The position numbers were made by a program, and so were the translations under genes. Source: Chitinophaga pinensis (lineage in GTDB: Bacteria; Verrucomicrobiota; Verrucomicrobiia; Limisphaerales; JAEYXS01). From it: a stretch of DNA of 64,000 bases. The stretch is from positions 23,264-87,263 of the forward strand of contig CALRJY020000023.1 of assembly GCA_943367715.1 (NCBI GenBank), read 5' to 3'. Every line of letters starts with the position of its first letter. Within the stretch, counting starts at the first letter, position 1. Below, piece after piece: positions 24,792 to 44,937 of the stretch. The notes under the pieces were generated by a model, which worked only from the letters and a program-made list of their open reading frames with translations, was not told where the DNA came from and searched no databases.

Positions 24792-24815
24792 ATATCCCTG
24801 AAAGGTACCCCCTCT

Positions 24816-26104: not shown

Positions 26105-26105
26105 C

Positions 26106-26707: not shown

Positions 26708-26728
26708 CATCCGTTCCCTCATCCTCAC

Positions 26729-26766
26729 AACCGCTGATCTCTCATGGTCAGCGGTTTTCATTTTCC
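26729..26766 (+). terminator. Rho-independent terminator
   Basis: Stem AACCGCTGA / TCAGCGGTT (26729-26737 / 26748-26756) followed by TTCATTTT. Confidence 0.5.
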
Positions 26767-26835
26767 ACCCCCTTTCTCTGCTCGCCTAGGAATTGAGCAG
26801 GGTTATTCGCGAACAACCCTTAACCATCATCAACA

Positions 26836-27924
26836 ATGAACGCAGTCTCTGAACTGAAATCCGTCAGTCTCTATTACCGTGAAGGCAGCAGTGACAAGGA
26901 ATACCACGTCCGCATCGAAGAATCTGGCGCTGGCTTCCTCGTCAACTTCGCTTATGGCCGTCGAGGTTCTACCCTCTCCACCGGCACCAAGACTTCCTCA
27001 CCGGTCACTCTTGAAGAAGCTGAGCGCCTCTTCGACAAGCTGGTGAAGGAGAAGAAGGCCAAAGGGTACCGGGAAGGTGAATCCGGCACGCCCTACCACC
27101 AACCCGATGAGGAGGAGAACAAAGAATCCGATATCCACCCGCAATTGCTCAACAGTGTGGATGAAGCGGAAGTCGAACGGCTCCTTGATGATCCGAACTG
27201 GTTCATGCAGGAGAAGCTCGATGGACGCCGGATGCTGCTCGAAAAGACAGGGCGCATGATCATTCCCATCAACAAGAAGGGTTTTGCCATCAGTGCAGCC
27301 GTCACCATCCTGCAATCGGCCGAGAACCTGAAACATGACTGCGTGCTCGATGGAGAGTGCATCGGTGACTACTACTACGCCTTCGATCTCTTGGAGCTGA
27401 AAGGTGAAGACCTCCGTCCCCAGCCATTCGAGAAGCGTTATATCGCCCTGCTCAACCTGTTTGGCGCTTCCCAAATGCGTCATATCCGGCTGGTTGGCTG
27501 TGAAATATCCCGCAAACGTCCCGTGTTCAACGAGCTGAAGGCCAAACGAGCCGAAGGCGTCGTGTTCAAGGACAAGCGTGCGCCCTACGTTGCCGGTCGT
27601 CCAAACAGTGGTGGTACGCAGTTGAAGCACAAGTTCGTAGCTTCCCTGTCTGCCGTCGTCACCACCATCAATGCCCAGCGCAGCGTCACTGTTAGCCTCC
27701 TGGACACCAATACTGGCTGGCATGAAGCTGGCAATGTCACTATCCCGGCCAACCACAAGGTTCCGGCATGTGGCACGGTGGTGGAAGTCCGCTATCTCTA
27801 CGCCTTCACCCAATCCCGCAAGGTGTTCCAGCCGGTCTATCTGGGTGAGCGCAAGGACGTGGATCAGATCGAATGCACCGTGACCCAGCTCAAGTTCAAG
27901 CCTGAGGAGGATGAACGTGAGTAG
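26836..27924 (+). CDS. WGR domain fused to an ATP-dependent DNA ligase
   Basis: The N-terminal ~80 aa (YYREGSSDKEYHVRIEESGAGFLVNFAYGRRGSTL...KLVKEKKAKGYRE) are WGR-like. They are followed by the ligase adenylation motif I EKLDGRRMLL, then GVVFKDKRAPYVAGRP and LKHK. Confidence 0.8.
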   Translation: MNAVSELKSVSLYYREGSSDKEYHVRIEESGAGFLVNFAYGRRGSTLSTGTKTSSPVTLEEAERLFDKLVKEKKAKGYREGESGTPYHQPDEEENKESDIHPQLLNSVDEAEVERLLDDPNWFMQEKLDGRRMLLEKTGRMIIPINKKGFAISAAVTILQSAENLKHDCVLDGECIGDYYYAFDLLELKGEDLRPQPFEKRYIALLNLFGASQMRHIRLVGCEISRKRPVFNELKAKRAEGVVFKDKRAPYVAGRPNSGGTQLKHKFVASLSAVVTTINAQRSVTVSLLDTNTGWHEAGNVTIPANHKVPACGTVVEVRYLYAFTQSRKVFQPVYLGERKDVDQIECTVTQLKFKPEEDERE

Positions 27925-28096
27925 TCTGCTTAACAAACGTCAGGTCAAACAGTTCACCTTGGATATGGCGAAGAAACGGGCTCACCGCTTTACACGTGTG
28001 GGTTCGGACTTCTACCTGAAATGTGAAGCCAACCTGAAAGAGTTCATCCGTCAGTCCGTACAACGTCTGCCATCCAAGGGCAAGACGATCCAGTAG
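27911..28096 (+). CDS. Small hypothetical protein (61 aa)
   Basis: ORF with a GTG start that overlaps the ligase stop. No other support. Confidence 0.3.
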   Translation: MNVSSLLNKRQVKQFTLDMAKKRAHRFTRVGSDFYLKCEANLKEFIRQSVQRLPSKGKTIQ

Positions 28097-28218
28097 TTCT
28101 TCCGCTGTCTCCAACTGGAGACATTCATCCCCCATAACCTCAAACCCATTCCCGCTGGCCTGGCTCTCCATCACGGAGGGCTGGGCTGGCGGTCTTTCGT
28201 TTTAACCCCATCACAATC

Positions 28219-29634
28219 ATGAAAACCATATCCCTATCCGCTTCCGAATTGAAACACGCACTCCTAGGTCTGTCCAAGGTGGTGCCACGCATCTCTCCCT
28301 TACCCGCCTTGCAATCCATCCGCGTCATCCGTGACAAGACGGGTATCGTTTGCTTGCAGGCCACTGATCTCGATGGCTTTGTCACCTACCAGACCGAACA
28401 GCGTCAACCGGGTCCGGAACTCGACTTTCTGGTGCCCTTCGAGCCGCTCAACAAAGAAGCCAAGTCTTCCAAAGAGAGGCTTGAGCTGATCCCCGACAAG
28501 GATCAGGTCATCATCCGGCGTCATCTGGGTGGATCGTATATCGACAAATCCCATGAAAGCCTGCCGGTCAACAAGTTCCCGGCGTTCCCCAGCGTCACCA
28601 CGGAAGGCATTCCTTTCACCCAGGAACTGAATGCAGCCATCAAACAGGCCTTGTCTTGCAGTAGTACAGATAGCAGCCGCCCGGCCTTGAACGGTGCGTG
28701 TCTGGATACGGCGGATGAGAAAGGCCATTATGTGGTGGCTACGGATGCCAAGTCCATCTTCTCGGCGAACTCCTTCAAGTTCGATCTGTCCCGCCCGCTC
28801 ATCATACCCAACGACAAGTTCCTGCTCTGGCCGGGTCTTGATCACAAGGAAGGCACACTGTCCATGGTACCGGCAGGTGAGAAGGACAATCATCCTTCGT
28901 GGATCAAGTTCGAGCTGCGCCCGTGGACCTACATCGCCAAGGAATGCACGGGCACCTATCCCAACTGGAAGCAGTGTGTGCCGGGTGAGCATCTGACCAC
29001 GGTGGATTTCAGTCCTGATACCGTGGCTACCATTCTGCTCACGCTGCCGCATCTGCCGGACAATGATAAGTCGGAGAAGCCCGTGGAGTTGAAGCTGGGC
29101 AAACGTGGGTGCTCGTTGCTGGCTAAGGATACGAACATTCCTCTCACTGGCATCACCATCGACGGTCCCGACCAGCACATCAAACTGAACCGCAACTATC
29201 TGGCCCAGGCCTTGCGCTTCGGCCTGCATCATCTGGGACTCACCGACAATGTTACGCCCGTCACCTTCTCCAAGGAAGGCAAACGGCTGGTGGTGATGGT
29301 GCTGCGCCCGGATAACTACCAGGCTCCGGCTGACCAAGCGCCGGAACCGGTCACCCCTCAACCCTCGCCGGCTAATGAAACTCCGGCACAAACCCAAGAA
29401 ACCGAAAAACCCATGGCCTCTGAAACCAAATCCACGACCACAGCCCCGACTCCCATCATAGAAGACGTGCTTACCCGCGTCTCCACATTGAAGGATAACC
29501 TGAAAGACTTCCTGCGTGATCTTCAGGAGATCCATTCGCTCCTGAAGCAAGTGGAGAAGGAGAAGAAGGCCACTGACAAGGAGGTCGAAACTGTGCGGGC
29601 CAAGCTTCGCGAGATCCAATCCGTGAAGATCTAA
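28219..29634 (+). CDS. DNA polymerase III beta sliding-clamp homolog with a ~100-aa disordered/coiled C-terminal extension
   Basis: The N-terminus LSASELKHALLGLSKVVPRISPLPALQSIRVIRDKTGIVCLQATDLDGFV mirrors the DnaN pattern L..L..v....r...P.L..i......g.l.l.aTDl. The total length of 471 aa exceeds the ~370 aa typical of DnaN. Confidence 0.65.
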   Translation: MKTISLSASELKHALLGLSKVVPRISPLPALQSIRVIRDKTGIVCLQATDLDGFVTYQTEQRQPGPELDFLVPFEPLNKEAKSSKERLELIPDKDQVIIRRHLGGSYIDKSHESLPVNKFPAFPSVTTEGIPFTQELNAAIKQALSCSSTDSSRPALNGACLDTADEKGHYVVATDAKSIFSANSFKFDLSRPLIIPNDKFLLWPGLDHKEGTLSMVPAGEKDNHPSWIKFELRPWTYIAKECTGTYPNWKQCVPGEHLTTVDFSPDTVATILLTLPHLPDNDKSEKPVELKLGKRGCSLLAKDTNIPLTGITIDGPDQHIKLNRNYLAQALRFGLHHLGLTDNVTPVTFSKEGKRLVVMVLRPDNYQAPADQAPEPVTPQPSPANETPAQTQETEKPMASETKSTTTAPTPIIEDVLTRVSTLKDNLKDFLRDLQEIHSLLKQVEKEKKATDKEVETVRAKLREIQSVKI

Positions 29635-29650
29635 CCATCCACCACCATGG

Positions 29651-29690
29651 AGAGTCTGTCAGCTAATCACTGGCAGGCTCTTCTCATTTT
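29651..29690 (+). terminator. Probable terminator hairpin
   Basis: 12-bp stem (29651-29662 / 29670-29681, including 2 G-U pairs), a 7-nt loop, then TCTCATTTT. Confidence 0.45.
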
Positions 29691-29708
29691 CATCCGAAAG
29701 GAATCTGT

Positions 29709-29876
29709 ATGCATAAAAACAACGGCGAGCTGATCTGGACATTAGTTGCCCTGACCATCATCGCCGCCATCCTCACCCAAATCTGGACCTATGTGGTGGG
29801 GGGCCTTGCGTTACTGGGAGCCTACTACGCTTTCCAACGCTGGCATCCACCCGGTCCACCCAACCGAAGAAACTAA
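29709..29876 (+). CDS. Small membrane protein (55 aa, below the track cutoff)
   Basis: Hand translation gives MHKNNGELIWTLVALTIIAAILTQIWTYVVGGLALLGAYYAFQRWHPPGPPNRRN. The stop TAA overlaps the next ATG (TAATG). Confidence 0.4.
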   Translation: MHKNNGELIWTLVALTIIAAILTQIWTYVVGGLALLGAYYAFQRWHPPGPPNRRN

Positions 29877-30877
29877 TGAACCAACTATTACCCCTGCTCA
29901 CCCGCGAAGGCATGCTCATCAAGGCATCCATATCGTTCTGGCGTGGGCACAAGAAACTCAAAGCCGAAGATCTGGGACTCAAAAGCCAGGATGTTTCTGA
30001 CCGTCTCATCAGTCTTGGCCACAAACGTCTGCTGCCCAAGGAATCGTTATCCGCGTTGTCCCTTGTTGAATCCCGCACTCATGCCTTGATCGAACACAAT
30101 ACCTTCCCGTTCCTGCATGGGTTGGGTCATTTCCTGCCTAATGCCAAGATGCCGGAGATCCTGGAACAACTCCATGAACTCGAAGCTCAGTTCTGGTCAG
30201 CTAAAGAGGAGTTTTTGCACAGTTACGCAGAACTCCGCCAACGGGCTGCTGGTGAATGGGCTGCTATGGCTGGGAAACTGGTGGAAGATCCTGACCGGTT
30301 AGTGGCAAGCATTGAAGCTTCGTTCCCGTATCCGCAACACATGGACCGTTACTATGGCTTCAACACCCACCTGTTCCAGATCCAGCTCCCAGAATCATTG
30401 GAGGCAGAGTTGTTGACCACGGCGGAACAACAAGCAGTCATCCAATCACGGCAACACGCTGCCCGTGAAGCTGGACTGAAGATCCGGCGGGAGGTGGAGC
30501 AGTTCGTCGGTGAGTGTGTGGCTTCATTGCGCGAGCAGACCGCCCAACTCTGTGACGACATGTTGCACAGTATCCGCAACAGTGAAACCGGCGTGCATCA
30601 GAAAACCCTTAACCGCCTGATCCGTTTCATCGACCAGTTCAAACAGATGAACTTCGCTGATGATACTGTTATGGAACGGCAGTTGGAATCTGTGCGGCAA
30701 GAGTTGCTTGGTCGGACTGCTGAAGAGTATCGCGACAGCAAGTATGCCCGACAGAAGCTCGTCAGTGGCCTCACCCAGCTATCCCAACAAGCCCGAGAAC
30801 TGGCCAAACAGGATGCTGGTGAGCTTGTGCAACGGTTCGGACAGATGGGTAACCGCAAGTTCCATCTTGCCGCTTAA
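29876..30877 (+). CDS. Hypothetical protein (333 aa), largely alpha-helical
   Basis: Long ORF that is translationally coupled upstream and followed by a strong terminator. I cannot assign a family with confidence. Confidence 0.6.
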   Translation: MNQLLPLLTREGMLIKASISFWRGHKKLKAEDLGLKSQDVSDRLISLGHKRLLPKESLSALSLVESRTHALIEHNTFPFLHGLGHFLPNAKMPEILEQLHELEAQFWSAKEEFLHSYAELRQRAAGEWAAMAGKLVEDPDRLVASIEASFPYPQHMDRYYGFNTHLFQIQLPESLEAELLTTAEQQAVIQSRQHAAREAGLKIRREVEQFVGECVASLREQTAQLCDDMLHSIRNSETGVHQKTLNRLIRFIDQFKQMNFADDTVMERQLESVRQELLGRTAEEYRDSKYARQKLVSGLTQLSQQARELAKQDAGELVQRFGQMGNRKFHLAA

Positions 30878-30964: not shown

Positions 30965-31210
30965 TTACTTGGTCCCCTTCTTTCCCGTATAAGGATTCAC
31001 ATTTCCTTTGGTGGACCAGTTGTTCTTCGGATTGGAATCCGGCGTTGAACGCTGGTGAGGAGACACGTAGGTGCCATTCTTGGTGGTATAGCCTCCCACG
31101 CTCGTTGACCCAGACTTAGACCCCGTGCCAGTCGCAGGTTTGTATCCGTCAGCAGCAAAAGCAGAAAATGCGAGGCTGAGACTGAGGCAGAGGAGCAAGA
31201 GGATCTTCAT
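30965..31210 (-). CDS. Small secreted protein (81 aa)
   Basis: Signal peptide MKILLLLCLSLSLAFSAFA followed by a Gly/Ser/Thr/Lys-rich mature part. It is the only minus-strand gene in this block. Confidence 0.55.
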   Translation of the reverse strand: MKILLLLCLSLSLAFSAFAADGYKPATGTGSKSGSTSVGGYTTKNGTYVSPHQRSTPDSNPKNNWSTKGNVNPYTGKKGTK

Positions 31211-31321: not shown

Positions 31322-31759
31322 ATGGCCGACTCCTACACCAAGTTCAGTCTCATTCTTAAATTGCCTGATATCGCTTCACAACAATATGCCTTGGCTCTCA
31401 ACGCCAAAGCCCATTCGCTCACCACTGGAGAAGACGTTCCCGGAGAGATCCCGGAATCTCTCCATCATTGGCTTGAGGAATGGATCTTCACCACCCGGCC
31501 CAGCGGCAATGAACTGGAGCCGGCCATCTGGATCTACTCGGAAGATGGTGGCGTAGATGCTGCCTGTGAATTCATCCACCACCTCCTTAAGAAGTTCAAC
31601 CTTGAAGGCTATGTCGCTTTCGAGTGGTCACACGATTGCAGCAAACCACTCGTAGACGCCTACGGTGGTGGTGCTGCCTTCATCACCGCAGATGACATCC
31701 ATACCATGAGCACTTGGGAATGGATCATCGAGAAATCACGTCAGTGCTCTCAACCCTAA
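31322..31759 (+). CDS. Hypothetical protein (145 aa), first gene of an 8-gene operon
   Basis: ORF followed by the next gene after a 9-nt gap. No motif recognised. Confidence 0.55.
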   Translation: MADSYTKFSLILKLPDIASQQYALALNAKAHSLTTGEDVPGEIPESLHHWLEEWIFTTRPSGNELEPAIWIYSEDGGVDAACEFIHHLLKKFNLEGYVAFEWSHDCSKPLVDAYGGGAAFITADDIHTMSTWEWIIEKSRQCSQP

Positions 31760-31768
31760 TAACCCACT

Positions 31769-32152
31769 ATGTCTGATAGATGTTTCATGGAACTCACCTG
31801 CCGTCGCGAAGACCTCGACCGTTTCACGGAGCTTGGCTTTCACACATGGGGCGAGGATGACGGTGCCCCTATCGTCGAACTCACTGATGAAGAAGCCAAC
31901 TTCGGACACTCAGATACCCTGCCCTCTGATGTTCCGTTCTTTGCTTCTCACGGATCGGGCGACAACTACGGCCCTCACCTGATCGCATGTGACGGCAAGC
32001 GGTTCATCGACATCCCCGGCGACAATCACAACTTCGAGATCGACTGGGACTATCAAACCAACAGTCCCACCTCTGAAAGCATCGCCCAAATCCGGGAATA
32101 CCTCGCAGTCAAAGTTACTGCTGAAGCCATCCTGACAGGTCAACTCGTCTGA
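31769..32152 (+). CDS. Hypothetical protein (127 aa)
   Basis: ORF with 9-nt and 24-nt gaps to its neighbours. Confidence 0.55.
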   Translation: MSDRCFMELTCRREDLDRFTELGFHTWGEDDGAPIVELTDEEANFGHSDTLPSDVPFFASHGSGDNYGPHLIACDGKRFIDIPGDNHNFEIDWDYQTNSPTSESIAQIREYLAVKVTAEAILTGQLV

Positions 32153-32176
32153 CACTCAACCAACAACCCTAAACAC

Positions 32177-32554
32177 ATGTCCCACTTCACCACCATCAAT
32201 ACCCAGATCAAAGACGTCACAGCTTTGCGTGCCGCCGTGAATGAGATTGGTCTCGAACTTCTCTCCGACACCGAGGCTCGCGGGTTCTCCACCATGAAAA
32301 CCCGTGGCGCTTATGTCATCCGGCTTAAAGGTCCGTATGACATCGCCGTGAACAAGCAACCTGACGGCACCTTCGGTCTCACCACCGATTGGTTTGCCGG
32401 TTATGTGGAGAAGGAGGTAGGCCCTAACTATGGCCGTCTCCTGCAATTGTACGCTGTCCACAAGACCACCCAGGAAGCCCGGAAGAAAGGTTTCCTGGTC
32501 CAACGTAAACAGCAACCCAACGGCTCCATCAAACTCGTGATCGAAACCGTATGA
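32177..32554 (+). CDS. DUF1257 (Ycf35-like) protein
   Basis: MSHFTTINTQIKDVTALRAAVNEIGLEL... matches my memory of the DUF1257 N-terminal signature (MSHFs.i.T.i.d...L..AL.dLG). The stop overlaps the next start. Confidence 0.7.
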   Translation: MSHFTTINTQIKDVTALRAAVNEIGLELLSDTEARGFSTMKTRGAYVIRLKGPYDIAVNKQPDGTFGLTTDWFAGYVEKEVGPNYGRLLQLYAVHKTTQEARKKGFLVQRKQQPNGSIKLVIETV

Positions 32555-32739
32555 AACCCTCCATCACCGTAGAAGTGTCTCCCACTGGAGAGATTCAAAT
32601 CGAAGGCCACGGTTTCAAAGGTCCGGAGTGTGAAACAGCTACCCGGTTCCTCGAAGAAGCCTTGGGTATCGTCCGCGCCAAACAAAAGAAGCCGGAGTAC
32701 AACCAAACCGCCACCACTAAACTGAAACAACCCACTTGA
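32551..32739 (+). CDS. DUF2997 protein
   Basis: 62 aa. ITVEVSPTGEIQIEGHGFKGPECETATRFLEEALG is the pattern I associate with DUF2997. Overlaps both neighbours by 4 nt. Confidence 0.65.
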   Translation: MKPSITVEVSPTGEIQIEGHGFKGPECETATRFLEEALGIVRAKQKKPEYNQTATTKLKQPT

Positions 32740-33449
32740 ACGAACCAGAACTCGCCCTGACCAACCCAGCCAAGCCACCCGTCGCCTTCTTTAAGCACGG
32801 GTGGCTTGTTCCTTATCTGCTCTCCGTCGATGAAGACACCTGGAGGCGCTGGAAGCATTGGTATGACATGATGCTCGCCGAAGATCTCATCGGTCCTATC
32901 CCCCAGATCCAATGGCAGAAGCATCCCTCCGCCCGTAAGATGCTCGAACAATCCCTGGCAGCAATTACCCGCAATGGTGACTGGACTGGCTGGGGATCAT
33001 GGCGCTGCATCGATTACCTGTTCGACTGGCTGCTCTTTGGCTTCGGTCATAGCAGCCAGACTGAACTGCCCCAGGAACCCGAGGAAGGTGCCTGCGAACG
33101 TCTCTACCAGGCATTCAATCTCGGCTACCTGCTCACCTATCCTCATGACTACTTCGGCGACATCCTGGCTGATAACCGTCATGGCCGTCAGTTGGGTTTC
33201 TTCCCGACACCCATGGATATCGTACAGTTGATGATCGAGATGAACTTGGGTGGGGAGGATTGCCGAAAGAAGAGTGTCTATGATCCAGCCGTAGGAACCG
33301 GTCGCATGCTTCTGTGTGCTTCCAACCATTCCTACCGGCTCTATGGCAATGATGTGAACCTGACTGTCATCAAGGCCACCCTCATCAACGGGTATCTCTA
33401 TGCTCCCTGGCTGGTGAAACCCTTCCCCTTCTTATGCAAATCACCCTGA
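32736..33449 (+). CDS. N6-adenine-methyltransferase-like SAM-binding protein lacking catalytic motif IV
   Basis: GFFPTPMDIVQLMIEM (motif X-like), VYDPAVGTGRMLL (motif I) and LYGNDVN. The ORF ends about 40 aa later with no (N/D)PP(Y/F/W) motif. TTG start overlaps the upstream stop. Confidence 0.6.
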   Translation: MNEPELALTNPAKPPVAFFKHGWLVPYLLSVDEDTWRRWKHWYDMMLAEDLIGPIPQIQWQKHPSARKMLEQSLAAITRNGDWTGWGSWRCIDYLFDWLLFGFGHSSQTELPQEPEEGACERLYQAFNLGYLLTYPHDYFGDILADNRHGRQLGFFPTPMDIVQLMIEMNLGGEDCRKKSVYDPAVGTGRMLLCASNHSYRLYGNDVNLTVIKATLINGYLYAPWLVKPFPFLCKSP

Positions 33450-33661
33450 CGTTTAACGAACAAGGCATCGGCCACGGCCTCTACACTGAGGCGATTCCCC
33501 TTCACACAATAGGCACGCTCCAGATGGCTCGTGCTTCATCAATCGAGTTCAACCCCACCAGCCAGCAATGGGAGGTTCGGGATACTGAAGACAACCTTCT
33601 GTATGCCGATCCTTCCCGTCAGCTGTGCCTTCAATGGGAATCCGATCACTTCAACCGATGA
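33434..33661 (+). CDS. Hypothetical protein (75 aa)
   Basis: ORF that overlaps the upstream gene by 16 nt and the downstream gene by 4 nt (ATGA). Confidence 0.45.
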   Translation: MQITLTFNEQGIGHGLYTEAIPLHTIGTLQMARASSIEFNPTSQQWEVRDTEDNLLYADPSRQLCLQWESDHFNR

Positions 33662-33945
33662 AACCAATAACACGGGTTTGGACGTTCCCCTCAGACTCCA
33701 ACCCCTCAACCGAATACCAGACTTTGCAGTACAGCGATGGGTCCACCTCCTGTAACTGCAAAGGCTGGACCCGTCGCACTGCCCTAGACGGTTCACGCTC
33801 CTGCAAACATACCCGGCTGGTGGATATGAACCGGGCAGACAGTCAATGTTCTGCCTCCCGTTACTACCGACCACAACCCCCTAAACCGAATGCCCAAACC
33901 AAAATCAAAACCGTCAGACTCGGTCAACGCCGTATTGTTGTCTGA
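33658..33945 (+). CDS. SWIM-type zinc-finger protein
   Basis: ATG at 33658 (MKPITRVW). CNCKGWTRRTALDGSRSCKHTRL fits CxCx(n)CxH. The track ORF 33625-33945 is this frame extended upstream. Confidence 0.6.
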   Translation: MKPITRVWTFPSDSNPSTEYQTLQYSDGSTSCNCKGWTRRTALDGSRSCKHTRLVDMNRADSQCSASRYYRPQPPKPNAQTKIKTVRLGQRRIVV

Positions 33946-35440
33946 TACAGCTCAACAAATCATCTCCTACCTCCGTGCTGGTTATCCTGGACTGTATATC
34001 GTCTCCCCGGAAGAACAGCGGGTGGAGGCGGAGTTTCAATCGATCGCCCAACATCTCAAGTTCAGTTTGTCAGCCTGGTCGATAGTGTCCGGGTTGGTGG
34101 ATGTCGAAACAGGCCAATCCCGTAACTGTGCTGATCCCATGGAGGTGCTGGAGGCGGTTCCGGAACTGAAGGAGCAATCAATCGTGCTGCTGAAAGACTT
34201 CCACCTGTTCCTGACTGACCCGAATCCCCTGCTCCTTAGAAAGTTCAAAGACTGCTTGTTGGTAGCGAAAACCAGACAGACACCCTTAATCATATTGGGT
34301 TGTCGCTTGTGTCTGCCACCTGAACTGGAACGCGAACTCACTGTCATCGAGTTCCATCTGCCGGATAAAGAAGCGCTGAAAACAGTTTACCATGGTGTAA
34401 TGGATTCGGCTGGCATCACCTCAGTAACGGTGGATGAACGCGAGAAGGCCGTGGAAGCTGCTTGTGGATTGACTACCATGGAAGCTGAGAACGCCTTTGC
34501 CTTGTCGGTGGTGAAGACGAAAACGATCTGCCCTACCGTAGTTGCCCGTGAAAAAGCTCAAGCGGTGAAACGGAATGGCTTGCTGGAAATCGTTGAATCA
34601 AAGGAATCACTGGAAAGCATCGGCGGGTTGGATTGCCTGAAAACTTGGCTGATCCAACGACGCCAAGCCTTCAGCCCCAAAGCATCAGCCTATCGTCTGC
34701 CTACGCCCAAGGGATTACTTATCATCGGAATTCCCGGCACTGGCAAATCCCTGACAGCCAAAGCAACAGCTCAAGTGTTTGGCGTTCCCTTGCTGAAACT
34801 GGATGCTGGCCGAATCTTTGGTGGTTTGGTTGGTCAATCCGAAGCCAATCTGAGAACTGTCATTCAGACAGCCGAAGCGATAGCGCCCTGTTGCCTGTGG
34901 ATCGATGAGTTGGAGAAAGCGTTTAGTGGCGTCAAATCTGGCTCTACTGACGGAGGCACTTCATCAAGGGTGTTCGGTTCACTCATCAACTGGTTGCAGG
35001 AGAAGACCAAGCCGGTGTTTGTCGTCGCCACTGCCAATGACATCAGCCAGCTACCCCCTGAACTGTTGAGGAAAGGCAGGTTCGACGAGATCTTCTTCGT
35101 CGATCTGCCCAACCATCAGGAACGTGCAGCTATCTGGCAGATCGTGGTTGAGAGGTTTGGCCGGAAGGCTGCTGAATATGACATCGACCAACTCAGCAGG
35201 GCCACTGAAGGTTTTACCGGCAGTGAGATCGAGGCGGTGTTTGTGGAGTCGTTGTTTGTGGCGTTTGAGTTGTCCAGGGAACCCTCTGACCTAGATATTG
35301 CTGGGGTTATCAACGGGATGGTACCGCTGTCGCAGACCATGGCAGAATCGATCAAATCTCTGAAGCAATGGTCTAGTGGTCGGGCTCGGTCTGCTACCTC
35401 ACCTGTCAGTTCCTCATCAACAAGGAAGCTGGCGGTGTGA
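33890..35440 (+). CDS. AAA+ ATPase (classic AAA clade, Ycf46/CDC48-like single module) with a ~250-aa N-terminal domain
   Basis: Walker A GIPGTGKSLTAKA, Walker B CCLWIDELEKAF, and the second region of homology VVATANDISQLPPELLRKGRFDEIFFVDLP. Confidence 0.9.
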   Translation: MPKPKSKPSDSVNAVLLSDTAQQIISYLRAGYPGLYIVSPEEQRVEAEFQSIAQHLKFSLSAWSIVSGLVDVETGQSRNCADPMEVLEAVPELKEQSIVLLKDFHLFLTDPNPLLLRKFKDCLLVAKTRQTPLIILGCRLCLPPELERELTVIEFHLPDKEALKTVYHGVMDSAGITSVTVDEREKAVEAACGLTTMEAENAFALSVVKTKTICPTVVAREKAQAVKRNGLLEIVESKESLESIGGLDCLKTWLIQRRQAFSPKASAYRLPTPKGLLIIGIPGTGKSLTAKATAQVFGVPLLKLDAGRIFGGLVGQSEANLRTVIQTAEAIAPCCLWIDELEKAFSGVKSGSTDGGTSSRVFGSLINWLQEKTKPVFVVATANDISQLPPELLRKGRFDEIFFVDLPNHQERAAIWQIVVERFGRKAAEYDIDQLSRATEGFTGSEIEAVFVESLFVAFELSREPSDLDIAGVINGMVPLSQTMAESIKSLKQWSSGRARSATSPVSSSSTRKLAV

Positions 35441-35544: not shown

Positions 35545-36507
35545 TCATCCTGCAAGTCCGGCGGATAGCTGCGTCTTAGCTTCGCGAACAAGTTCACTGG
35601 CTTTGTGCACCATCTGGTCCTCCTTCGTCTGCCGGAGAATACGGTACACCCAGTCGAAGATAAGTGGGTTACGGGAACGCGCATCGAAAAGCGCATCCTG
35701 AATCAAGAGGCATTGCTGAAAATCTTCTGGATCTCCGTGCGGGTTCAGCAGGGACTGATTCCAGAGGGATTCCACTGCCTCCAGTCCTCGCTGTCCGGCC
35801 TTGATGGCATCCGATTGGGCGAGGATTTCACGCAGCAGCCAAATGACAGCCGGGGCTAGTGGTGCATAAACAGTCAGTATCATTTGTTGCACCGTGTCAC
35901 CACGAATTAGTGCGATACCGAAAACAGTGACAGAAAGTGCAACCAGAATGACGGTCAACCAGAAGCGCACTCGTGCACGTTGATTCAAGTCCCACCAAAA
36001 ACTGGCTCGCTGGCAGATCAACCTCGCCAAAGGTAGAGGTATCTCGCCAGCGACAGACGGGTACCAGTTGTAAATCTGAGCGCGGTCGCCTGCATTGGCA
36101 TTATGTCGTCGGCTGGAGTCAAGGATGTCTTCAGAATCGACTTTTCGACCACACCTGAGAGGACGCCATGGCAGCTCAAAAAGGGCGCAATCGAACATCT
36201 GCTGGATGAGTGCACCCTCACGCTTGAGTTGGTTGAGCGCACGGGAAAGCCAGAGTGCGTCCAGAAGGGTCACTGAGATGGAAAAGCAAGTAAGCCAGAT
36301 TTTCAGGTCAGGCTTCCAGCTCATCAATATGGAACTCACAAGAGCGGCGGGCACCGTGATGATGAGTTGGAATGCCATGAGCCGCTTAGCGGTTCCATAA
36401 ACGTGGCTGGCTGCAGCGAGTAAGTTGACTTGCGGCTCGGCGTTCTGCTTTGAAGCAATATCACATCCCTCTACCATGGAAAGTTCCCCCTGAAAACAAT
36501 GTCCCAC
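35545..36507 (-). CDS. SMODS-associated 4-TM effector (S-4TM-like)
   Basis: Four hydrophobic helices (LIITVPAALVSSILMSW, IWLTCFSISVTLLDALWL, FWLTVILVALSVTVFGIALI, ILTVYAPLAPAVIWLL). The start overlaps the end of the upstream nucleotidyltransferase gene by 37 nt. Confidence 0.6.
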   Translation of the reverse strand: MGHCFQGELSMVEGCDIASKQNAEPQVNLLAAASHVYGTAKRLMAFQLIITVPAALVSSILMSWKPDLKIWLTCFSISVTLLDALWLSRALNQLKREGALIQQMFDCALFELPWRPLRCGRKVDSEDILDSSRRHNANAGDRAQIYNWYPSVAGEIPLPLARLICQRASFWWDLNQRARVRFWLTVILVALSVTVFGIALIRGDTVQQMILTVYAPLAPAVIWLLREILAQSDAIKAGQRGLEAVESLWNQSLLNPHGDPEDFQQCLLIQDALFDARSRNPLIFDWVYRILRQTKEDQMVHKASELVREAKTQLSAGLAG

Positions 36508-37343
36508 TGGCGACGTGCTTCATTAATATCCCCGCGATTTTCTGCCATGACCGCCCTTTCTGCATGGTTTCGAGAATCCACCACTGAGGCTAATGCTCGT
36601 TCGCGCTGCGCAAGCGTTTTTACGGCAGGGATGTTGCCAGCGATCTTGTATGGATCACGGATTGCACGGCACTCTCGGCGGGCTAGGCTGCGAAATATTT
36701 CCAACATGCAAGTGGTGTAAGATTTCACCCCTTTGCACACGCCCTCATACGCCAGAGCGATCTCGATATGGAATGAGGAGAGTGGAATGCGTACTTCTCG
36801 GCACTCGCGCCAAAATTTCATAAGCTGTGCCACATACACAAGCTTGCCTCCGCTCTGTGTGTTCGCATCAGCGAGGTAAGCATCATGCGCGCCCGGCCAT
36901 GTCAGCATCCACCGTCCATCGCCATCAGGAATCCAATAGACGGGCCACTTCTGCTCGATCCGATCAAACATTCCAGGCACTACCTCGACATGTCGGCCAT
37001 CTGAGAAAGACACGGCTATGGCGATCCCGTCCTTGTAAACACTGCTGCTCGGGTAGCGCTCTACCAATGCGATCCGGACTTTTTCCAAGGCTGTGTCGGA
37101 GCGGATGATTTGATCGCCCCGGGTAAAGACAGGTTTGCGAAAAACGGCAAGTAGATCCGTGTCACTGAATCCACGGATGGATGTCTCGCGAACGAAGCTG
37201 CCTATGGGCAGACATTTCGACACCTCAAACTCGGTTTCAAGCCGTGTTCGGATAGCGGTAAGATGCCGACGAGCCGCCAGAAGCTCACTTTCAAGCGGTT
37301 GAATCCTGCATATGAGCTCCTGAAATGATTCGCTAATCGTCAT
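36471..37343 (-). CDS. SMODS-family nucleotidyltransferase (CD-NTase-like), CBASS synthase
   Basis: IGSFVRETSIRGFSDTDLLAVF (GS...DxD pol-beta motif) and a third acidic residue in GRHVEVVPG. About 290 aa. Confidence 0.7.
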   Translation of the reverse strand: MTISESFQELICRIQPLESELLAARRHLTAIRTRLETEFEVSKCLPIGSFVRETSIRGFSDTDLLAVFRKPVFTRGDQIIRSDTALEKVRIALVERYPSSSVYKDGIAIAVSFSDGRHVEVVPGMFDRIEQKWPVYWIPDGDGRWMLTWPGAHDAYLADANTQSGGKLVYVAQLMKFWRECREVRIPLSSFHIEIALAYEGVCKGVKSYTTCMLEIFRSLARRECRAIRDPYKIAGNIPAVKTLAQRERALASVVDSRNHAERAVMAENRGDINEARRQWDIVFRGNFPW

Positions 37344-37569
37344 TCGTGCTCACGAGTTAAAGATTCAGTCGAGTAGTGATGGGAGGCGTGTGATCTATTC
37401 AGCGACGTGGCAAGGCAACGTGGCAGGCATCTGCACGACTTATTGGCTAAGGGCGCCCCGCTTTCGCTGTCCTTTTGGTATCGCCTCATAATCGTATCCT
37501 CAGTCCGCTATTCCGGCCTGTCCGCTTTCGGCCGCTTCAAAGCCCCATAGACCCCGTGCAGCAGCAAGT

Positions 37570-40500
37570 TCATACGGGCTCAGCAGAATTTCCAACTTCA
37601 AAGCCGCCTTCCAGGATGAATTTTGTCAGCAGATTCGACGCTCTGATGTTTACCTTGTGTGGCGGGAGCCTTTCACCCGCTAGCGCTTCAAAGTAAGCTT
37701 TGGCTTTATCCTTGTCGATGGTGGCCTTGAGGTCATCAAAGCGTCCGTAGTCGTTCAAGTTTGCTGCGGTCACGTTCGCGTTTATCAACGCAGTCAGCTT
37801 CTCTTCGTCGATGCCGAGGCATTTGACGATGGCCGCCACCTCCTTGTTTTTGGCCTGAGTCTTGTAGTCGTTCAGGTAGTCTCGGAAAGTGCGGTCAGGG
37901 TCGATCTTCACCTCCCCACGCTGGATGTCGTGGAGAAAGATTCCGGCCAGCTTTTGCTCTTCCTGGGAGAGCGAGGCAAACGAGCGGTGCAGGTCAGCCA
38001 GCGTCGTCTCCTTTGCGGCTTGGTCCCCGCTTTGCAGGACTTTGAGATACTTCTGAAAGCGCGAATTCATGTAGTCGGCATCGATCTTGCCGGTATCGCT
38101 CTCGGTGATGTGGCTGTCGATGTCGAAGGGGATGTCGTCGCCGCCACCGCCGCCACCACCGCCGCCGCCGCCGAGTTCTTTGTAGCGCTGGAGGAGCGTC
38201 AGATATTGAAGGTGGGTGATGGTGAGCTGGATTTGCTTCTTCGGCTCTTCACCAAACTCATAAACCGGTTGCTCCCATGTGAACCCCTGGATCTTCGCTG
38301 CTTCCAGGACGGCATTGAACTGGTTGAACTGCTTGGCGAAAGCCGCACACTCGGTAGGATCATCCGGCAGCTTCATGAAATCCGTGATTCCCGCCGCGTT
38401 GAAGATGGCGCTGATCTCGGCAAAAATTGCATTCAGCCGCTCCAGGTTCATCGGCAGACGATCCGCGAAGAGGCCAATTGGTTTGTCGCCAGAATACAGT
38501 TTTACCGCAGCCTCGACGTTCCGTTTCATCGTGTGCGGCTTGCGGTAGTAGCGGATGGTGCCAAAGGGCTTTTCGAGCGGGTGGAACAGACGGTTGGTCC
38601 GGGAAAAAGCCTGGATGATGTTTTCATACTCCAGCAGCTTGTCGAGGTAGAGGGTGTTCACCCATTTCGAATCAAAGCCTGTGAGCATCTGATTGACCAC
38701 AATCAGCAGGTCGAGCCGCTTTTCCGGCTCGGCCTCGATACGGATATACGGCGCTTTATGCGCGAGTCGGGCCGCAAGGTCCTTTTTGAAATGGGCGTGC
38801 GTTCCAAAATCGAACTTCTGCCCGTAGGCGGCGTTATAGTCGGTCAGTATTTCGATCAGCCCGTCCGTCTTGAAGGCAGGATCGCCGCCGCCATCTTCAT
38901 CGCTGATGTTTGGGTCGAAAAGCGCAGTAATTTTGAGCGTGGGGCACTGCGCCTTTATCAGGCGGTAATAGATGATCGCTTCTGGAATGCTGCTGGTGGC
39001 AAAGATAGCATGGAATTTACTGGCTTGGCTCAAAGTTACCCAGTTGTCGGTGATGTCCTGCACGACGGCGTTCCGGTGTTCATCTCGCTCATATTGGGCA
39101 GTAGGCAAGAGGTCCTCAATGCCGGATTGATAGACACCGGCACTATCTCGCTGACCCGCCATCGGCACCTCATTCATGTAGCGGTTGAAGACCTTCTTTT
39201 TCTTCGGGTCGGCCATGGCTTCCGCCACCGTGTCGGCTTTGCACTTCTCAAGGGCAATAGCCTCCCGCAGATCGCGGTCCTTGTAGGTCATCACCTGGTA
39301 GGGATCAAAGCCGAGGACGTTCTTGTCGCGGATGCCGTCGGCGATGCTGTAACGGTGCAACTCATCACCAAAGACATCCGTGGTGGTATTGTCCTTGCGG
39401 ACATTCTCCCTGTGGATGGGCGTGCCGCTGAAGCCGAAGAAGACCGCGCCGGCAAAGCTCTCTTTGATATCGACGAGCATTTCGCCGAAAGTGGAGCGAT
39501 GGCATTCGTCGATGATGAAGACGATGCGCTTGGCCCGCATGGTTTCCAAGTCGTGCGCTTTCAGCCCATCCGCGTCATCCGTGAGTCGGCTCATTTTCTG
39601 GATGGAGGTCACGATCAGCGTATCGGCCGGGTCGGTGCTCTTGAGTTTCTTTACCAGCACGCCGGTGTGTTCCGTGGCCTGCACCTCGTTGCCGTCACCG
39701 GCGAAGTTGCGATACTGTTCCAGTGTCTGCGTGCCCAACTCGATGCGGTCGAGCAGGAAGACCACTTTGTCCGCATCCTTCGAGTTGGCGATGAGTTGCG
39801 CGGACTTGAAGCTCGTCATCGTCTTGCCCGATCCCGTCGTGTGCCAAATGTAGCCGCCGAGGCGGTTCGGATTCTGCCAATCCGTCTTCGCCACCTTGTC
39901 GGAAATGGCGTGCGCGGCGTAGTATTGGTAGCTGCGCATCACCTTCAGCACCCCGTCCGCCTCATCCGCCACGGTGTAGAAACCGATGAGTTGATGCGCC
40001 ATGGGGATGGAGAGGAGATCTTTTGTAAACCTCTTCCAGTCGTTAATCGGTTCGTTGTTAAAGTCCGCCCAGTGAAAGGCGTAGTCCTTATTGAATTTCC
40101 CGTCTGGCCCGGGATTGGCAAAGTAAAGCGCCTCGGCTGGCTCCATCGCCACGAAGATTTGGAGGAGGGAAAAGAGGCCGGTGAAGATGCCCTCGTGAGA
40201 ATACTTCTGGATCTGATTGTAGGCCACCATCACCGGCACACCGCTGCGCTTCAGCTCGAGGTGGATCACCGGCATTCCGTTGATGAGCAGCACCAGATCG
40301 CCTCGCCGGTCATTCTGCAAGGGAGAGCCACGTGCATAGCGCGGTTGCTGCGCGATCTGGTAGCGGCTCTGGCCAGCGGCGATCTCGTGCCGGTCATAGA
40401 TTTTTAGGCTCACTTCCTTGCCGAAGTGTAACGCGTCGACTGGATTGTCGCGGGTAATGGAAACCGTCTTGCCGTTGATGAAGCCATTGAGCCGCAGCGG

Positions 40501-40731: not shown

Positions 40732-40749
40732 GGGTGAGGCGGGCGACGC

Positions 40750-42021: not shown

Positions 42022-42022
42022 C

Positions 42023-44623: not shown

Positions 44624-44748
44624 AGTAAAGTTATTGGGAAGATTGTCTTTGGCGTAGGCGTCATTAGGGCGGAATCAATCTAGGGTTTCCAGTCCAAAGC
44701 CTTCCGTCAGCAAGCAACTCGCATTGCTGTCCTTCGGTTTGTCCGCTT

Positions 44749-44924: not shown

Positions 44925-44937
44925 AAGCAAACCCCTT

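What the first reader, a model, noticed from the sequence alone, without database searches (positions are those of the whole stretch)
31322..35440. Eight translationally coupled genes: 2 unknowns, DUF1257, DUF2997, MTase-like, unknown, SWIM, AAA+; candidate undescribed system next to the defence island
These eight plus-strand genes have almost no spacing. The gaps are 9 and 24 nt, followed by four start/stop overlaps (32551-32554 ATGA, 32736-32739, 33434-33449, 33658-33661 ATGA). The AAA+ gene starts inside or at the end of the SWIM gene. Such coupling usually means stoichiometric complex formation. The parts are a classic-clade AAA+ unfoldase/remodeller with an extra N-domain, a SWIM zinc finger (nucleic-acid or protein binding), a SAM-binding methyltransferase-like protein without a catalytic motif IV, two small DUFs (DUF1257/Ycf35-like and DUF2997) and three orphans. 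I know of no named defence, modification or mobility system with this composition. The operon ends 105 bp from a CBASS operon and about 2 kb from Type I R-M, within an accessory region. It could be a defence or counter-defence system, or a maintenance module of the mobile element.
Basis: partly seen in the sequence, partly recalled or inferred. Interest (0 to 1): 0.72.

Follow-up and report, generated by a model that had tools for sequence, protein, structure and literature searches.

The report
Mobile-element copy of Ycf46 chaperone-like module
The eight tightly packed genes are real, but only four form a conserved unit: a diverged copy of the widespread, uncharacterised Ycf46 ATPase set, which is fixed backbone of a Verrucomicrobial mobile element next to the slot where defence genes are swapped.

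Summary
All eight plus-strand ORFs exist with the stated junctions. DUF1257, DUF2997, a truncated N6-methylase-like protein and an AAA+ ATPase are confirmed. SWIM rests only on an invariant CxCx14CxH motif.

They are not one eight-gene system. In 42 related Verrucomicrobiota loci the conserved unit is DUF1257–DUF2997–O6 (75-aa orphan)–AAA+ (35-37/42). SWIM (18/42), the MTase-like gene (4/42), O1 (5/30) and O2 (2/30) are variable inserts.

The core always closes a syntenic block: PD-(D/E)XK nuclease, ligase, clamp-like protein, DUF3150. Downstream nothing is conserved, but 7 of 10 sampled flanking genes carry defence-type domains. The module is therefore the conserved anchor of a defence-gene hotspot, not cargo.

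The ATPase is 40% identical to cyanobacterial Ycf46. In the Synechocystis chromosome, Ycf46 is likewise preceded by DUF1257 and DUF2997. The same trio occurs on plasmids of five further phyla and on two viral contigs.

The "extra N-domain" is a degenerate AAA+ domain. No PADLOC defence model fits.

Best reading: an ATP-driven protein remodeller with two or three small partners that serves the element, biochemical role unknown. It is a new variant of a catalogued but uncharacterised kind. Interest is moderate.

The parts
31322..31759 (+). O1, 145-aa orphan; variable accessory gene
   Evidence: No Pfam/PHROGs/PADLOC/NCBIfam/PDB hit. Homologues in 5 of 30 related loci with enough upstream sequence; 65-69% identity in L004/L005.
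31769..32152 (+). O2, 127-aa orphan; variable accessory gene
   Evidence: No family or PDB hit. Found in 2 of 30 loci.
32177..32554 (+). DUF1257 (Ycf35-like) protein; core gene 1
   Evidence: Pfam PF06868 2e-11; phrog_20456. Present in 35/42 loci. 31% identical to the DUF1257 gene beside Synechocystis Ycf46. AF2 model has pLDDT 88. No PDB fold match, best E 0.14. Two unnamed viral proteins share the fold.
32551..32739 (+). DUF2997 protein with invariant G..G..C motif; core gene 2
   Evidence: Pfam PF11211 6e-14; phrog_23133. Present in 37/42 loci. The single conserved Cys is seen across phyla.
32736..33449 (+). Truncated HsdM/N6-MTase-like protein (motifs X, I, II only); variable accessory gene
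   Evidence: N6_Mtase hit covers residues 148-210 only. PDB alignments to HsdM chains stop at motif I/II. No NPPF/Y motif in this protein or in its Gloeothece and Paenibacillus plasmid homologues. Present in 4/42 loci, at two different positions relative to O6.
33434..33661 (+). O6, 75-aa conserved orphan; core gene 3 of the Verrucomicrobial variant
   Evidence: Present in 37/42 loci. 343 cluster representatives at E<=1e-3 among 1.84 billion proteins, nearly all standalone and 74-120 aa. No family or PDB hit. Not related to the radical-SAM protein that occupies this slot in canonical clusters.
33658..33945 (+). SWIM-like zinc-finger protein (CxCx14CxH); semi-conserved accessory gene
   Evidence: Invariant C32, C34, C49, H51 in 13 homologues. 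No Pfam SWIM hit. Present in 18/42 loci, only in the clade at least 60% identical to the window's AAA+.
33890..35440 (+). Ycf46-family tandem AAA+ ATPase; core gene 4. Degenerate D1 is about residues 20-235. Active D2 has Walker A 280-287, Walker B 334-343, sensor-1 N383 and Arg fingers 394/397. Pore loop is GLVG.
   Evidence: Pfam AAA 4e-29. phrog_8638 matches full length, 2e-134. 40% identical to Synechocystis PCC 7338 Ycf46 over residues 21-503. D2 is closest to the p97/CDC48 D2 domain. The model of residues 1-250 (pLDDT 80) matches 626 PDB AAA+ chains at E<=1e-3. The D1 nucleotide motifs are degenerate: GYPGLY and LLKDFH.
24783..30877 (+). Conserved backbone block upstream: g24783, PD-(D/E)XK nuclease 25289-26104, g26061, WGR + ATP-dependent ligase 26836-27924, DnaN-like clamp 28219-29634, DUF3150 29876-30877
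   Evidence: Pfam/NCBIfam/PHROGs hits. Syntenic with the core module across loci at 54-86% AAA identity. DUF3150 in 20/30 loci and DnaN-like in 19/28.
30965..31210 (-). Small minus-strand ORF with a signal-peptide-like N-terminus; it interrupts the plus-strand run between DUF3150 and O1
   Evidence: translation (MKILLLLCLSLSLAFSAFA...). No homologue in related loci. It lies in variable slot 1 together with O1 and O2.
35545..53348 (-). Variable defence cargo downstream of the AAA+ gene: CBASS (S-4TM 35545-36507, SMODS 36471-37343), type I R-M 37570-44623, Gabija 45027-48685, STAND NTPase 49647-53348
   Evidence: Pfam. Shared only with L005. Other loci carry other defence-type genes at this position.

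Best explanation
The conserved unit has four genes: DUF1257, DUF2997, O6 and a tandem AAA+ ATPase with a dead D1 ring and a live D2 ring.

It is a diverged, reduced copy of the Ycf46 / Ycf35(DUF1257) / DUF2997 module. That module sits in the chromosomes of cyanobacteria and several other phyla. It also sits on plasmids and on some viral contigs.

Here the module is fixed backbone of a family of multi-copy Verrucomicrobial integrative elements. It is the last gene set of a replication/recombination block: primase-helicase, PD-(D/E)XK nuclease, ligase, clamp-like protein, DUF3150. It lies immediately next to the slot where defence cassettes are exchanged.

Inferred mechanism:
- The ATPase forms a hexameric ATP-driven protein remodeller or unfoldase.
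- The small proteins act as its adaptors or clients.
- The module works for the element, plausibly by remodelling replication or establishment proteins. This would resemble host chaperones and Clp ATPases activating plasmid and phage replication proteins.

O1, O2, the truncated methylase-like protein and the SWIM-like protein are interchangeable accessory inserts, not subunits of a fixed complex.

Shown: the composition, conservation, synteny, homology to Ycf46 sets and domain architecture. Inferred: hexamer formation, partner roles and the biological role.
For: Core versus accessory counts in 42 loci. Minimal loci read DUF3150-DUF1257-DUF2997-O6-AAA.

There are 2-5 diverged copies per MAG, some on contigs over 500 kb. 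Nothing is conserved downstream. 7 of 10 sampled downstream genes carry defence-type domains: ResIII, HerA, RT, STAND-like, GmrSD, OLD. L074 has a Dcm/AIPR/Z1 island at the same position.

The same trio in other contexts:
- Synechocystis chromosome, next to Hsp70/GrpE-like genes.
- Verrucomicrobiota and Gemmataceae, with an NrdG-like radical SAM protein and WD40.
- Nostoc pCC7120alpha, in the same order with a small ORF before the AAA gene.
- Paenibacillus, Bacillus, Paenarthrobacter and Rhodococcus plasmids.
- A Ca. Manganitrophus plasmid, again beside DUF3150.
- Viral contigs L080 (DUF1257, DUF2997) and L081 (DUF1257), and PHROGs families.

Other points:
- DUF3150 lies in the ssb-recT-exo region of an IncC-like conjugative plasmid, beside another AAA+/vWA pair.
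- D1 is a degenerate AAA+ fold. D2 has intact catalytic motifs.
- A J-domain gene is in the same island.
- No PADLOC system fits.
Against: No biochemical or genetic data exist for any member, so the role in the element is inference from position.

The pore-loop-1 aromatic residue is replaced by Leu (GLVG). This is unusual for a threading unfoldase.

The element type is unresolved. No integrase, relaxase, T4SS or capsid gene was recognised between 14 and 53 kb.

The J-domain gene is not conserved in related loci.

Canonical relatives carry WD40, Hsp70 and radical-SAM partners. That mix resembles chaperone-based conflict systems (PMC7159879), so an immune role is not excluded.

Lying next to a defence hotspot is also what a defence gene would show.
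Confidence: 0.55

Rival explanations
1. The core module is itself an immune or abortive-infection system. The AAA+ ATPase and its small partners would sense an invader and trigger growth arrest, as proposed for NTPase/chaperone-centred conflict systems.
For: It lies directly beside defence cassettes in many loci. Canonical relatives associate with WD40 proteins, Hsp70/GrpE and a radical SAM enzyme, a mix reminiscent of the systems in PMC7159879. One relative sits next to a WD40-caspase-like protein. The cyanobacterial ycf46 operon is reported to be induced with growth shutdown under severe stress (bioRxiv 10.1101/2025.07.21.665879).
Against: No PADLOC or NCBIfam defence model fits. It is the constant part while the neighbouring defence genes vary. 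No effector domain (nuclease, protease, pore, NADase) was recognised in the core. Orthologues occur in plastid genomes (PMC5940233), where immunity is unlikely.
Confidence: 0.2
2. The locus is an anti-defence or establishment island. The accessory small proteins (O1, O2, truncated HsdM-like, SWIM-like), and perhaps the ATPase, would neutralise host restriction or other immunity when the element enters a new cell.
For: Several small, fast-evolving, interchangeable ORFs are slotted between conserved genes. One is a catalytically incomplete HsdM-like protein that could act as a decoy for type I R-M assembly. Its homologues lie on plasmid backbones beside partition genes, UDG or a PAPS-reductase-like gene. 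In proteobacterial conjugative plasmids, DUF3150 lies in the ssb-recT-exo region, which also holds an orphan Dam methylase. A RadC gene sits beside the trio in Manganitrophus.
Against: None of the proteins matches a known anti-defence family. No oriT or relaxase was found to define a leading region. The ATPase trio is also chromosomal in cyanobacteria and other phyla.
Confidence: 0.15
3. All eight products assemble into one stoichiometric machine, as the first reader proposed on the basis of translational coupling.
For: Seven tight junctions, five of them overlaps. No internal terminator-like or promoter-like site on the plus strand beyond chance.
Against: Four of the eight genes are absent from most related loci. 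The MTase-like gene changes position. Identity to the closest relative is mosaic across the eight genes. A minus-strand ORF and 444 nt separate O1 from the upstream operon, and minimal loci go directly from DUF3150 to DUF1257.
Confidence: 0.05

Closest known systems
Cyanobacterial/plastid Ycf46 (slr0374, Synpcc7942_0417) with Ycf35 (DUF1257) and DUF2997: the 'ycf46 stress operon'
   Same: Full-length homology of the ATPase, including the degenerate N-terminal AAA domain (40% identity, residues 21-503). DUF1257 and DUF2997 lie directly upstream in the same order. The DUF1257-DUF2997 pair is also linked in the cyanobacterial fed7 cluster (PMC4284462). ycf35 and ycf46 show similar loss patterns in freshwater red algal plastids (PMC5940233).
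   Different: The window's copy belongs to a separate clade. Canonical Ycf46 proteins are 74-80% identical across phyla, against about 40% to this one. It lacks the Hsp70/GrpE, WD40 and NrdG-like radical-SAM neighbours. It has the O6 orphan in the slot before the ATPase. It sits in a mobile-element backbone. The function of the known set is itself unknown: reported links to CO2 uptake, circadian timing and stress are phenotypic only (PMC7496141; bioRxiv 10.1101/2025.07.21.665879). Whether slr0373/slr0376 are the DUF1257/DUF2997 genes was not checked directly. The check was made on the PCC 7338 orthologous locus.
Plasmid- and virus-borne AAA+ / DUF1257 / DUF2997 clusters (Nostoc pCC7120alpha, Paenibacillus pPPM1a, Bacillus, Paenarthrobacter, Rhodococcus, Ca. 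Manganitrophus plasmids; PHROGs 8638/20456/23133)
   Same: The same trio on mobile DNA. The Nostoc plasmid has the same order with a small ORF before the ATPase. The Manganitrophus plasmid also has DUF3150 adjacent. The truncated MTase-like family is on some of the same plasmids.
   Different: Gram-positive versions add an NrdG-like 4Fe-4S/radical SAM protein and a ComEA-like HhH protein. Gene order differs: the ATPase comes first. O6 was not detected there.
CDC48/p97-type tandem AAA+ unfoldases
   Same: Two stacked AAA+ folds per chain. D2 is most similar to p97/CDC48 D2 (6e-51), with Walker A/B, sensor 1 and two Arg fingers.
   Different: D1 has lost its nucleotide-binding motifs. There is no CDC48-type N domain. 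The pore loop 1 aromatic is replaced by Leu. Total length is only 516 aa.
IetAS and CBASS TRIP13/HORMA accessory ATPases (defence-associated AAA+ proteins)
   Same: Classic-clade AAA+ domain. Weak PADLOC hits: IetA 4e-24, TRIP13 2e-4. A CBASS operon is adjacent.
   Different: Only the generic AAA core aligns (residues 267-455). NCBIfam IetA scores 81 bits against a cut-off of 510. No IetS protease and no HORMA gene is present. The ATPase is conserved in loci without CBASS.
SXT/IncC-type ssb-bet-exo-cobS...DUF3150-vWA region of conjugative elements
   Same: DUF3150 sits beside an AAA+ chaperone-type ATPase within a recombination/establishment gene block of a mobile element.
   Different: The ATPase there is a MoxR/CobS-type protein with a vWA partner, not Ycf46-type. 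DUF1257 and DUF2997 are absent. Similarity of the DUF3150 proteins is low (24-32%).

Membership tests
Ycf46-type AAA+ module (Ycf46 + DUF1257 + DUF2997) | Full-length homology to Ycf46, including the region N-terminal to the AAA domain | tested here: met
   40% identity over residues 21-503 to the Synechocystis PCC 7338 protein. That protein is 77% identical to a Geminocystis protein, which in turn is 79% identical to a Stanieria protein named YCF46.
Ycf46-type AAA+ module (Ycf46 + DUF1257 + DUF2997) | DUF1257 and DUF2997 genes adjacent to the ATPase | tested here: met
   Pfam hits in the window. Same adjacency in Synechocystis, Verrucomicrobiota, Gemmataceae, plasmids and viral contig L080.
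Ycf46-type AAA+ module (Ycf46 + DUF1257 + DUF2997) | Accessory partners of the canonical clade: NrdG-like radical SAM protein, WD40 protein, Hsp70/GrpE | tested here: not met
   None is present between 24.7 and 35.5 kb. Only a J-domain gene at 23733-24590 is present. O6 is unrelated to the radical SAM proteins.
IetAS anti-phage system | IetA-family ATPase above the curated score, with an adjacent IetS serine protease | tested here: not met
   NCBIfam IteA 81 bits versus cut-off 510. No protease among the neighbours.
CBASS Cap6 (TRIP13) / Cap7 (HORMA) regulators | TRIP13-like ATPase with a HORMA partner in the CBASS operon | tested here: not met
   TRIP13 E=2e-4 with no full stretch. No HORMA gene. 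The ATPase is on the opposite strand to CBASS and is conserved where CBASS is absent.
N6-adenine DNA methyltransferase (HsdM-like, gamma class) | Motif I (SAM binding) plus catalytic motif IV (D/N/S)PP(F/Y/W) | tested here: not met
   Motifs X, I and II are present. The protein ends about 45 residues after motif I. No NPPF/Y motif in it or in its plasmid homologues.
SWIM zinc finger | CxCxnCxH signature and a match to the SWIM profile | tested here: inconclusive
   The signature is invariant in 13 homologues. No Pfam SWIM hit even at E=10.
Defence-island cargo (generic) | Variable presence among otherwise related elements; flanked by conserved anchor genes | tested here: not met
   The core is present in 35-37 of 42 loci while the downstream genes differ from locus to locus. 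It behaves as the anchor, not the cargo.
Type II (tandem) AAA+ ATPase | Two AAA+ folds in one chain | tested here: met
   Model of residues 1-250 (pLDDT 80) hits 626 AAA+ chains at E<=1e-3. D2 is confirmed by Pfam and PDB sequence search. D1 nucleotide motifs are degenerate.

The most novel reading that the evidence does not exclude
The Ycf46 / DUF1257 / DUF2997 set (with an NrdG-like radical SAM enzyme, WD40 and Hsp70/GrpE in its canonical form, and with O6 in this reduced form) could be a single, ancient, still undescribed multi-protein machine. It would have been repeatedly captured by plasmids, viruses and integrative elements. In the mobile form it could be a new kind of element-encoded chaperone system controlling establishment, replication or immunity at a defence-gene hotspot. 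The invariant Gly/Cys motif of DUF2997 could be the target of the glycyl-radical-activase-like enzyme.
Probability: 0.25. Interest if true: 0.75.

Novelty: new variant of a known kind. Interest (0 to 1): 0.5.

Why it matters
Ycf46 and Ycf35 have been catalogued as conserved plastid and cyanobacterial reading frames of unknown function for decades.

This work shows that the ATPase, DUF1257 and DUF2997 travel together as a unit across at least six bacterial phyla, on chromosomes, plasmids, viral contigs and a multi-copy Verrucomicrobial element. That gives a concrete three- to four-protein set to reconstitute. It also offers tractable plasmid-borne copies to delete.

For mobile-element biology, the module marks a conserved anchor next to a defence-gene hotspot in a poorly studied phylum. 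This could be used to mine new defence cassettes.

For the original claim, the result tempers expectations. This is not an eight-component novel defence system.

Tried and rejected
- Defence assignment. PADLOC and NCBIfam gave only sub-threshold generic AAA hits.
- CBASS accessory role. Rejected: no HORMA gene, and the ATPase is conserved without CBASS.
- Prophage origin. Only two distant IMG/VR hits, and no structural genes.
- RNA elements. No Rfam family anywhere in the window.
- Promoter and terminator scan. Nothing above chance inside the operon.
- PDB sequence searches for O1, O2, O6, DUF1257, DUF2997 and SWIM-like. Nothing meaningful.
- DUF1257 fold search against PDB. No match. Against BFVD, only unnamed viral homologues.
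- O6 as a remnant of the radical SAM gene, or a homologue of the Nostoc 85-aa ORF. No similarity.
- SWIM by Pfam. No hit.
- Kaur et al. conflict-system paper. It does not describe a Ycf46-centred system.
- Literature on DUF1257/DUF2997/DUF3150. Only passing mentions.
- att-like direct repeats bounding the island. None found.
- Greedy gene calling on loci was noisy because of antisense ORFs. Counts were therefore taken from profile searches on stop-to-stop ORFs.
- Mycobacteriophage cluster O and the Streptococcus satellite carry the ATPase without detectable DUF1257/DUF2997.

Full report
**Observation.** The junctions were read base by base: +9, +24, -4 (ATGA), -4 (TTGA), -16, -4 (ATGA) and -56 nt.

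The AAA+ start is the one soft point. TTG codons at 33935/33938 would shorten the overlap to 11 or 8 nt. Residues 1-15 are predicted disordered. Relatives in loci without the SWIM-like gene align only from about residue 20.

Pfam confirms DUF1257 (2e-11), DUF2997 (6e-14) and AAA (4e-29). The N6_Mtase match is partial and restricted to residues 148-210. O1, O2 and O6 have no family in Pfam, PHROGs, PADLOC or NCBIfam. PDB sequence searches found no relative for them.

The SWIM call rests on an invariant CxCx14CxH signature in 13 homologues. Pfam's SWIM model does not match even at E=10.

The methylase-like protein has motifs X, I and II of HsdM-type enzymes and stops before motif IV. That C-terminus is conserved in its homologues, so it is a genuine truncated family rather than a pseudogene. 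No internal terminator or promoter signal exceeds chance. No Rfam family is present anywhere in the window.

**Context.** The window is Verrucomicrobiota, probably Limisphaerales-like, judging by the source of the relatives. PSD1/DUF1501 genes typical of the PVC group (Planctomycetota-Verrucomicrobiota-Chlamydiota) run up to about 13.4 kb.

An island follows, containing:
- primase/helicase-like genes (g15925 and DUF5906);
- a reverse transcriptase and a J-domain protein;
- a PD-(D/E)XK nuclease;
- a WGR + ATP-dependent ligase;
- a DnaN-like clamp and DUF3150;
- the eight genes.

On the opposite strand come a type I CBASS (SMODS + S-4TM), type I R-M, Gabija and a STAND NTPase. No integrase, relaxase, T4SS or capsid gene was recognised, so the element type is unresolved.

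**Comparative genomics.** A scan of one genome per GTDB species found 69 loci encoding relatives of the ATPase. Nearly all are Verrucomicrobiota MAGs. Several MAGs carry 2-5 diverged copies, some on contigs over 500 kb.

Presence was counted with profile searches on stop-to-stop ORFs:

| Gene | Loci with the gene / loci with enough upstream sequence |
|---|---|
| DUF1257 | 35 / 42 |
| DUF2997 | 37 / 42 |
| O6 | 37 / 42 |
| SWIM-like | 18 / 42 |
| MTase-like | 4 / 42 |
| DUF3150 | 20 / 30 |
| O1 | 5 / 30 |
| O2 | 2 / 30 |
| DnaN-like | 19 / 28 |

Minimal loci read DUF3150-DUF1257-DUF2997-O6-AAA with nothing in between. The five loci lacking the small genes have truncated or rearranged ATPase genes.

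The MTase-like gene lies before O6 in the window and L005, but after O6 in L011, L015 and L045. It was therefore inserted independently.

Against the closest relative L005, identity is mosaic:
- O1 and O2: 56-65%.
- DUF1257, DUF2997, MTase-like: 92-96%.
- AAA: 86%.
- CBASS: 99%.

The eight genes therefore do not share one history. Upstream, g24783, the PD-(D/E)XK nuclease, ligase, DnaN-like and DUF3150 genes are syntenic down to 54% ATPase identity.

Downstream, no gene family recurs in more than a few loci. But 7 of 10 sampled flanking genes carry defence-type domains: ResIII, HerA, RT, STAND-like, GmrSD and OLD. L074 has a Dcm/AIPR/DUF4420/Z1/HATPase island at the same place. The ATPase module is thus the constant anchor of a defence-gene hotspot.

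**What the core is.** The ATPase matches phrog_8638 over its full length (2e-134). DUF1257 and DUF2997 match PHROGs 20456 and 23133.

On plasmids the same genes recur together:

| Replicon | Gene order or content |
|---|---|
| Nostoc pCC7120alpha | DUF1257-DUF2997-85-aa ORF-AAA, WGR protein nearby |
| Geminocystis plasmid | DUF1257, DUF2997, AAA |
| Paenibacillus pPPM1a | AAA-DUF1257-DUF2997-4Fe-4S |
| B. licheniformis | AAA, DUF1257, DUF2997, 4Fe-4S |
| B. cereus | 4Fe-4S, HhH, AAA, DUF2997 |
| Paenarthrobacter, Rhodococcus | AAA-141-aa ORF-DUF2997-HhH or hypothetical-4Fe-4S |
| Ca. Manganitrophus | RadC-hyp-AAA-hyp-DUF1257-DUF2997-DUF3150 |

Viral contig L080 has DUF1257 and DUF2997 upstream of the ATPase. 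L081 has DUF1257 downstream of it.

The Geminocystis plasmid ATPase is 74-80% identical to proteins from other cyanobacteria, including one named YCF46. It is equally similar to proteins from Chloroflexota, Nitrospirota, Gemmataceae, Verrucomicrobiota and Bacteroidota. This defines an unusually conserved canonical clade.

Contexts of that canonical clade:
- Synechocystis PCC 7338 chromosome: GrpE-like-Hsp70-DUF1257-DUF2997-Ycf46.
- A Verrucomicrobiota MAG with housekeeping flanks: DUF1257-DUF2997-radical SAM-AAA-WD40.
- Gemmataceae: DUF2997-radical SAM-AAA-DUF1257-WD40.
- Chloroflexota and another MAG: AAA-WD40-WD40-(GrpE)-Hsp70.
- Stanieria: AAA with HEAT, WD40 and GrpE genes.

The radical SAM proteins are NrdG/glycyl-radical-activase-like, with E 1e-26 to 1e-34 and a CX3CX2C motif.

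The window's proteins are 40% (ATPase), 31% (DUF1257) and 43% (DUF2997) identical to the Synechocystis set. The finding is therefore a diverged, reduced variant of the Ycf46 module. It has no radical SAM, WD40 or Hsp70/GrpE gene. O6 sits in the slot before the ATPase.

O6 is a bona fide family. It has 343 representatives among 1.84 billion proteins, nearly all standalone and 74-120 aa. It is unrelated to the radical SAM proteins and to the Nostoc 85-aa ORF.

**Protein features.** D2 of the ATPase has Walker A (280-287), Walker B (334-343), a sensor-1 Asn and the two Arg fingers. Its pore loop reads GLVG rather than aromatic-hydrophobic-Gly. D2 is closest to p97/CDC48 D2.

The "extra N-domain" was modelled at pLDDT 80. 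It is an AAA+ fold, matching 626 PDB chains at E<=1e-3, all AAA+. It has lost the P-loop and Walker B acidic pair. The protein is thus a tandem AAA+ with a dead D1.

DUF1257 gives a confident model (pLDDT 88). It has no solved structural relative (best E 0.14). Only unnamed viral homologues appear in BFVD. DUF2997 carries an invariant G..G..C motif across phyla.

**Mechanism.** Shown: the composition, conservation, synteny, homology and architecture. Inferred: the ATPase acts as an ATP-driven protein remodeller, with DUF1257, DUF2997 and (here) O6 as adaptors or clients.

Three observations support the chaperone theme:
- Hsp70/GrpE genes lie beside canonical copies.
- A J-domain gene lies in this island.
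- DUF3150 lies beside a different AAA+/vWA chaperone pair in the ssb-recT-exo region of an IncC-like conjugative plasmid.

By established knowledge, DnaK/DnaJ/GrpE and Clp ATPases activate plasmid and phage replication proteins. This is my own knowledge, not tested here. Together with the position at the end of a replication/recombination block, it makes a role in element replication or establishment the best guess (confidence 0.55).

Rivals:
- The core is itself an immune system (0.2).
- The variable small ORFs, including the truncated HsdM-like protein, form an anti-defence set (0.15).
- All eight products form one complex (0.05).

**Comparison with what is known.** The closest known entity is the cyanobacterial/plastid Ycf46-Ycf35-DUF2997 gene set. 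Its operon is strongly stress-induced and its biochemical function is unknown (PMC7496141; bioRxiv 10.1101/2025.07.21.665879). The DUF2997-ycf35-fed7 cluster is noted in PMC4284462. Similar loss of ycf35 and ycf46 in red algal plastids is reported in PMC5940233.

The papers I could search do not describe the association of the trio with mobile elements, or its radical-SAM/WD40/Hsp70 partners.

I rate the finding a new variant of a known, uncharacterised kind. It is not a categorically new defence system.

**Verdict.**
- Observation: confirmed.
- Interpretation: partly supported.
- Interest: 0.5.
- Most novel reading still open: the Ycf46 set is an undescribed multi-protein machine repeatedly captured by mobile elements (probability 0.25, interest if true 0.75).

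Noticed in passing
window 44757-44924 and 49144-49307: A direct repeat of about 170 nt (86-93% identical) brackets the Gabija cassette (45027-48685). A 26-nt core occurs only at these two sites in the window (0 expected by chance) and in none of the 93 fetched loci. It could be a cassette boundary or a duplicated regulatory region of the defence hotspot.
   Followed up: partly
L087, L088, L090, L091, L092, L093 (canonical Ycf46 loci): Canonical Ycf46 proteins are 74-80% identical between Cyanobacteria, Chloroflexota, Nitrospirota, Planctomycetota, Verrucomicrobiota and Bacteroidota. They sit with DUF1257, DUF2997, an NrdG-like radical SAM protein, WD40 proteins and Hsp70/GrpE. No glycyl-radical enzyme is nearby, so the activase-like enzyme has an unknown target. 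DUF2997's invariant G..G..C motif is a candidate.
   Followed up: partly
window 32736-33449; L083 6129-6989; L084 9842-11029: The truncated HsdM-like protein defines a family on cyanobacterial, Paenibacillus and Bacillus plasmids (28 PLSDB records), none with motif IV. In Paenibacillus it precedes a PAPS-reductase-family gene. In Gloeothece it overlaps a uracil-DNA glycosylase gene beside parAB. L031 has a second, 303-aa truncated N6_Mtase-like gene elsewhere in the element.
   Followed up: partly
window 53799-58076 (- strand): A single 1425-aa ORF combines a Y-family polymerase/ImuB-like region (IMS, IMS_C) with a DnaE2-like region (PHP, DNA_pol3_alpha, finger, HHH_6). The mutasome components appear to be fused.
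   Followed up: no
window 20885-22759 (+): A 624-aa reverse transcriptase (RVT_1, phrog_1423) lies inside the island. No group II intron, retron or other Rfam RNA was detected anywhere in the window.
   Followed up: partly
window 23733-24590 (+): A J-domain (DnaJ) protein is encoded in the island about 9 kb upstream of the ATPase. It is not conserved in related loci but is thematically linked to the Hsp70/GrpE neighbours of canonical Ycf46.
   Followed up: partly
window 30965-31210 (- strand): An 81-aa ORF with a signal-peptide-like N-terminus lies in the 444-nt gap between DUF3150 and O1, on the opposite strand. It has no homologue in related loci.
   Followed up: no
L061 and L064: A 1.28-Mb contig labelled Synechococcus sp. 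UW140 shares gene families around the ATPase (f118-f122) with a Fimbriimonadaceae contig. This suggests mis-binning or recent transfer. There the ATPase follows a 1354-aa WD40/caspase-like protein and lacks DUF1257/DUF2997.
   Followed up: no
L001 (Treponema succinifaciens pTRESU01): The closest plasmid homologue of the ATPase (43% identity) sits with a 4Fe-4S protein inside a contractile-injection-system-like cluster (VgrG/Pvc8, baseplate V). DUF1257 and DUF2997 were not detected there.
   Followed up: no
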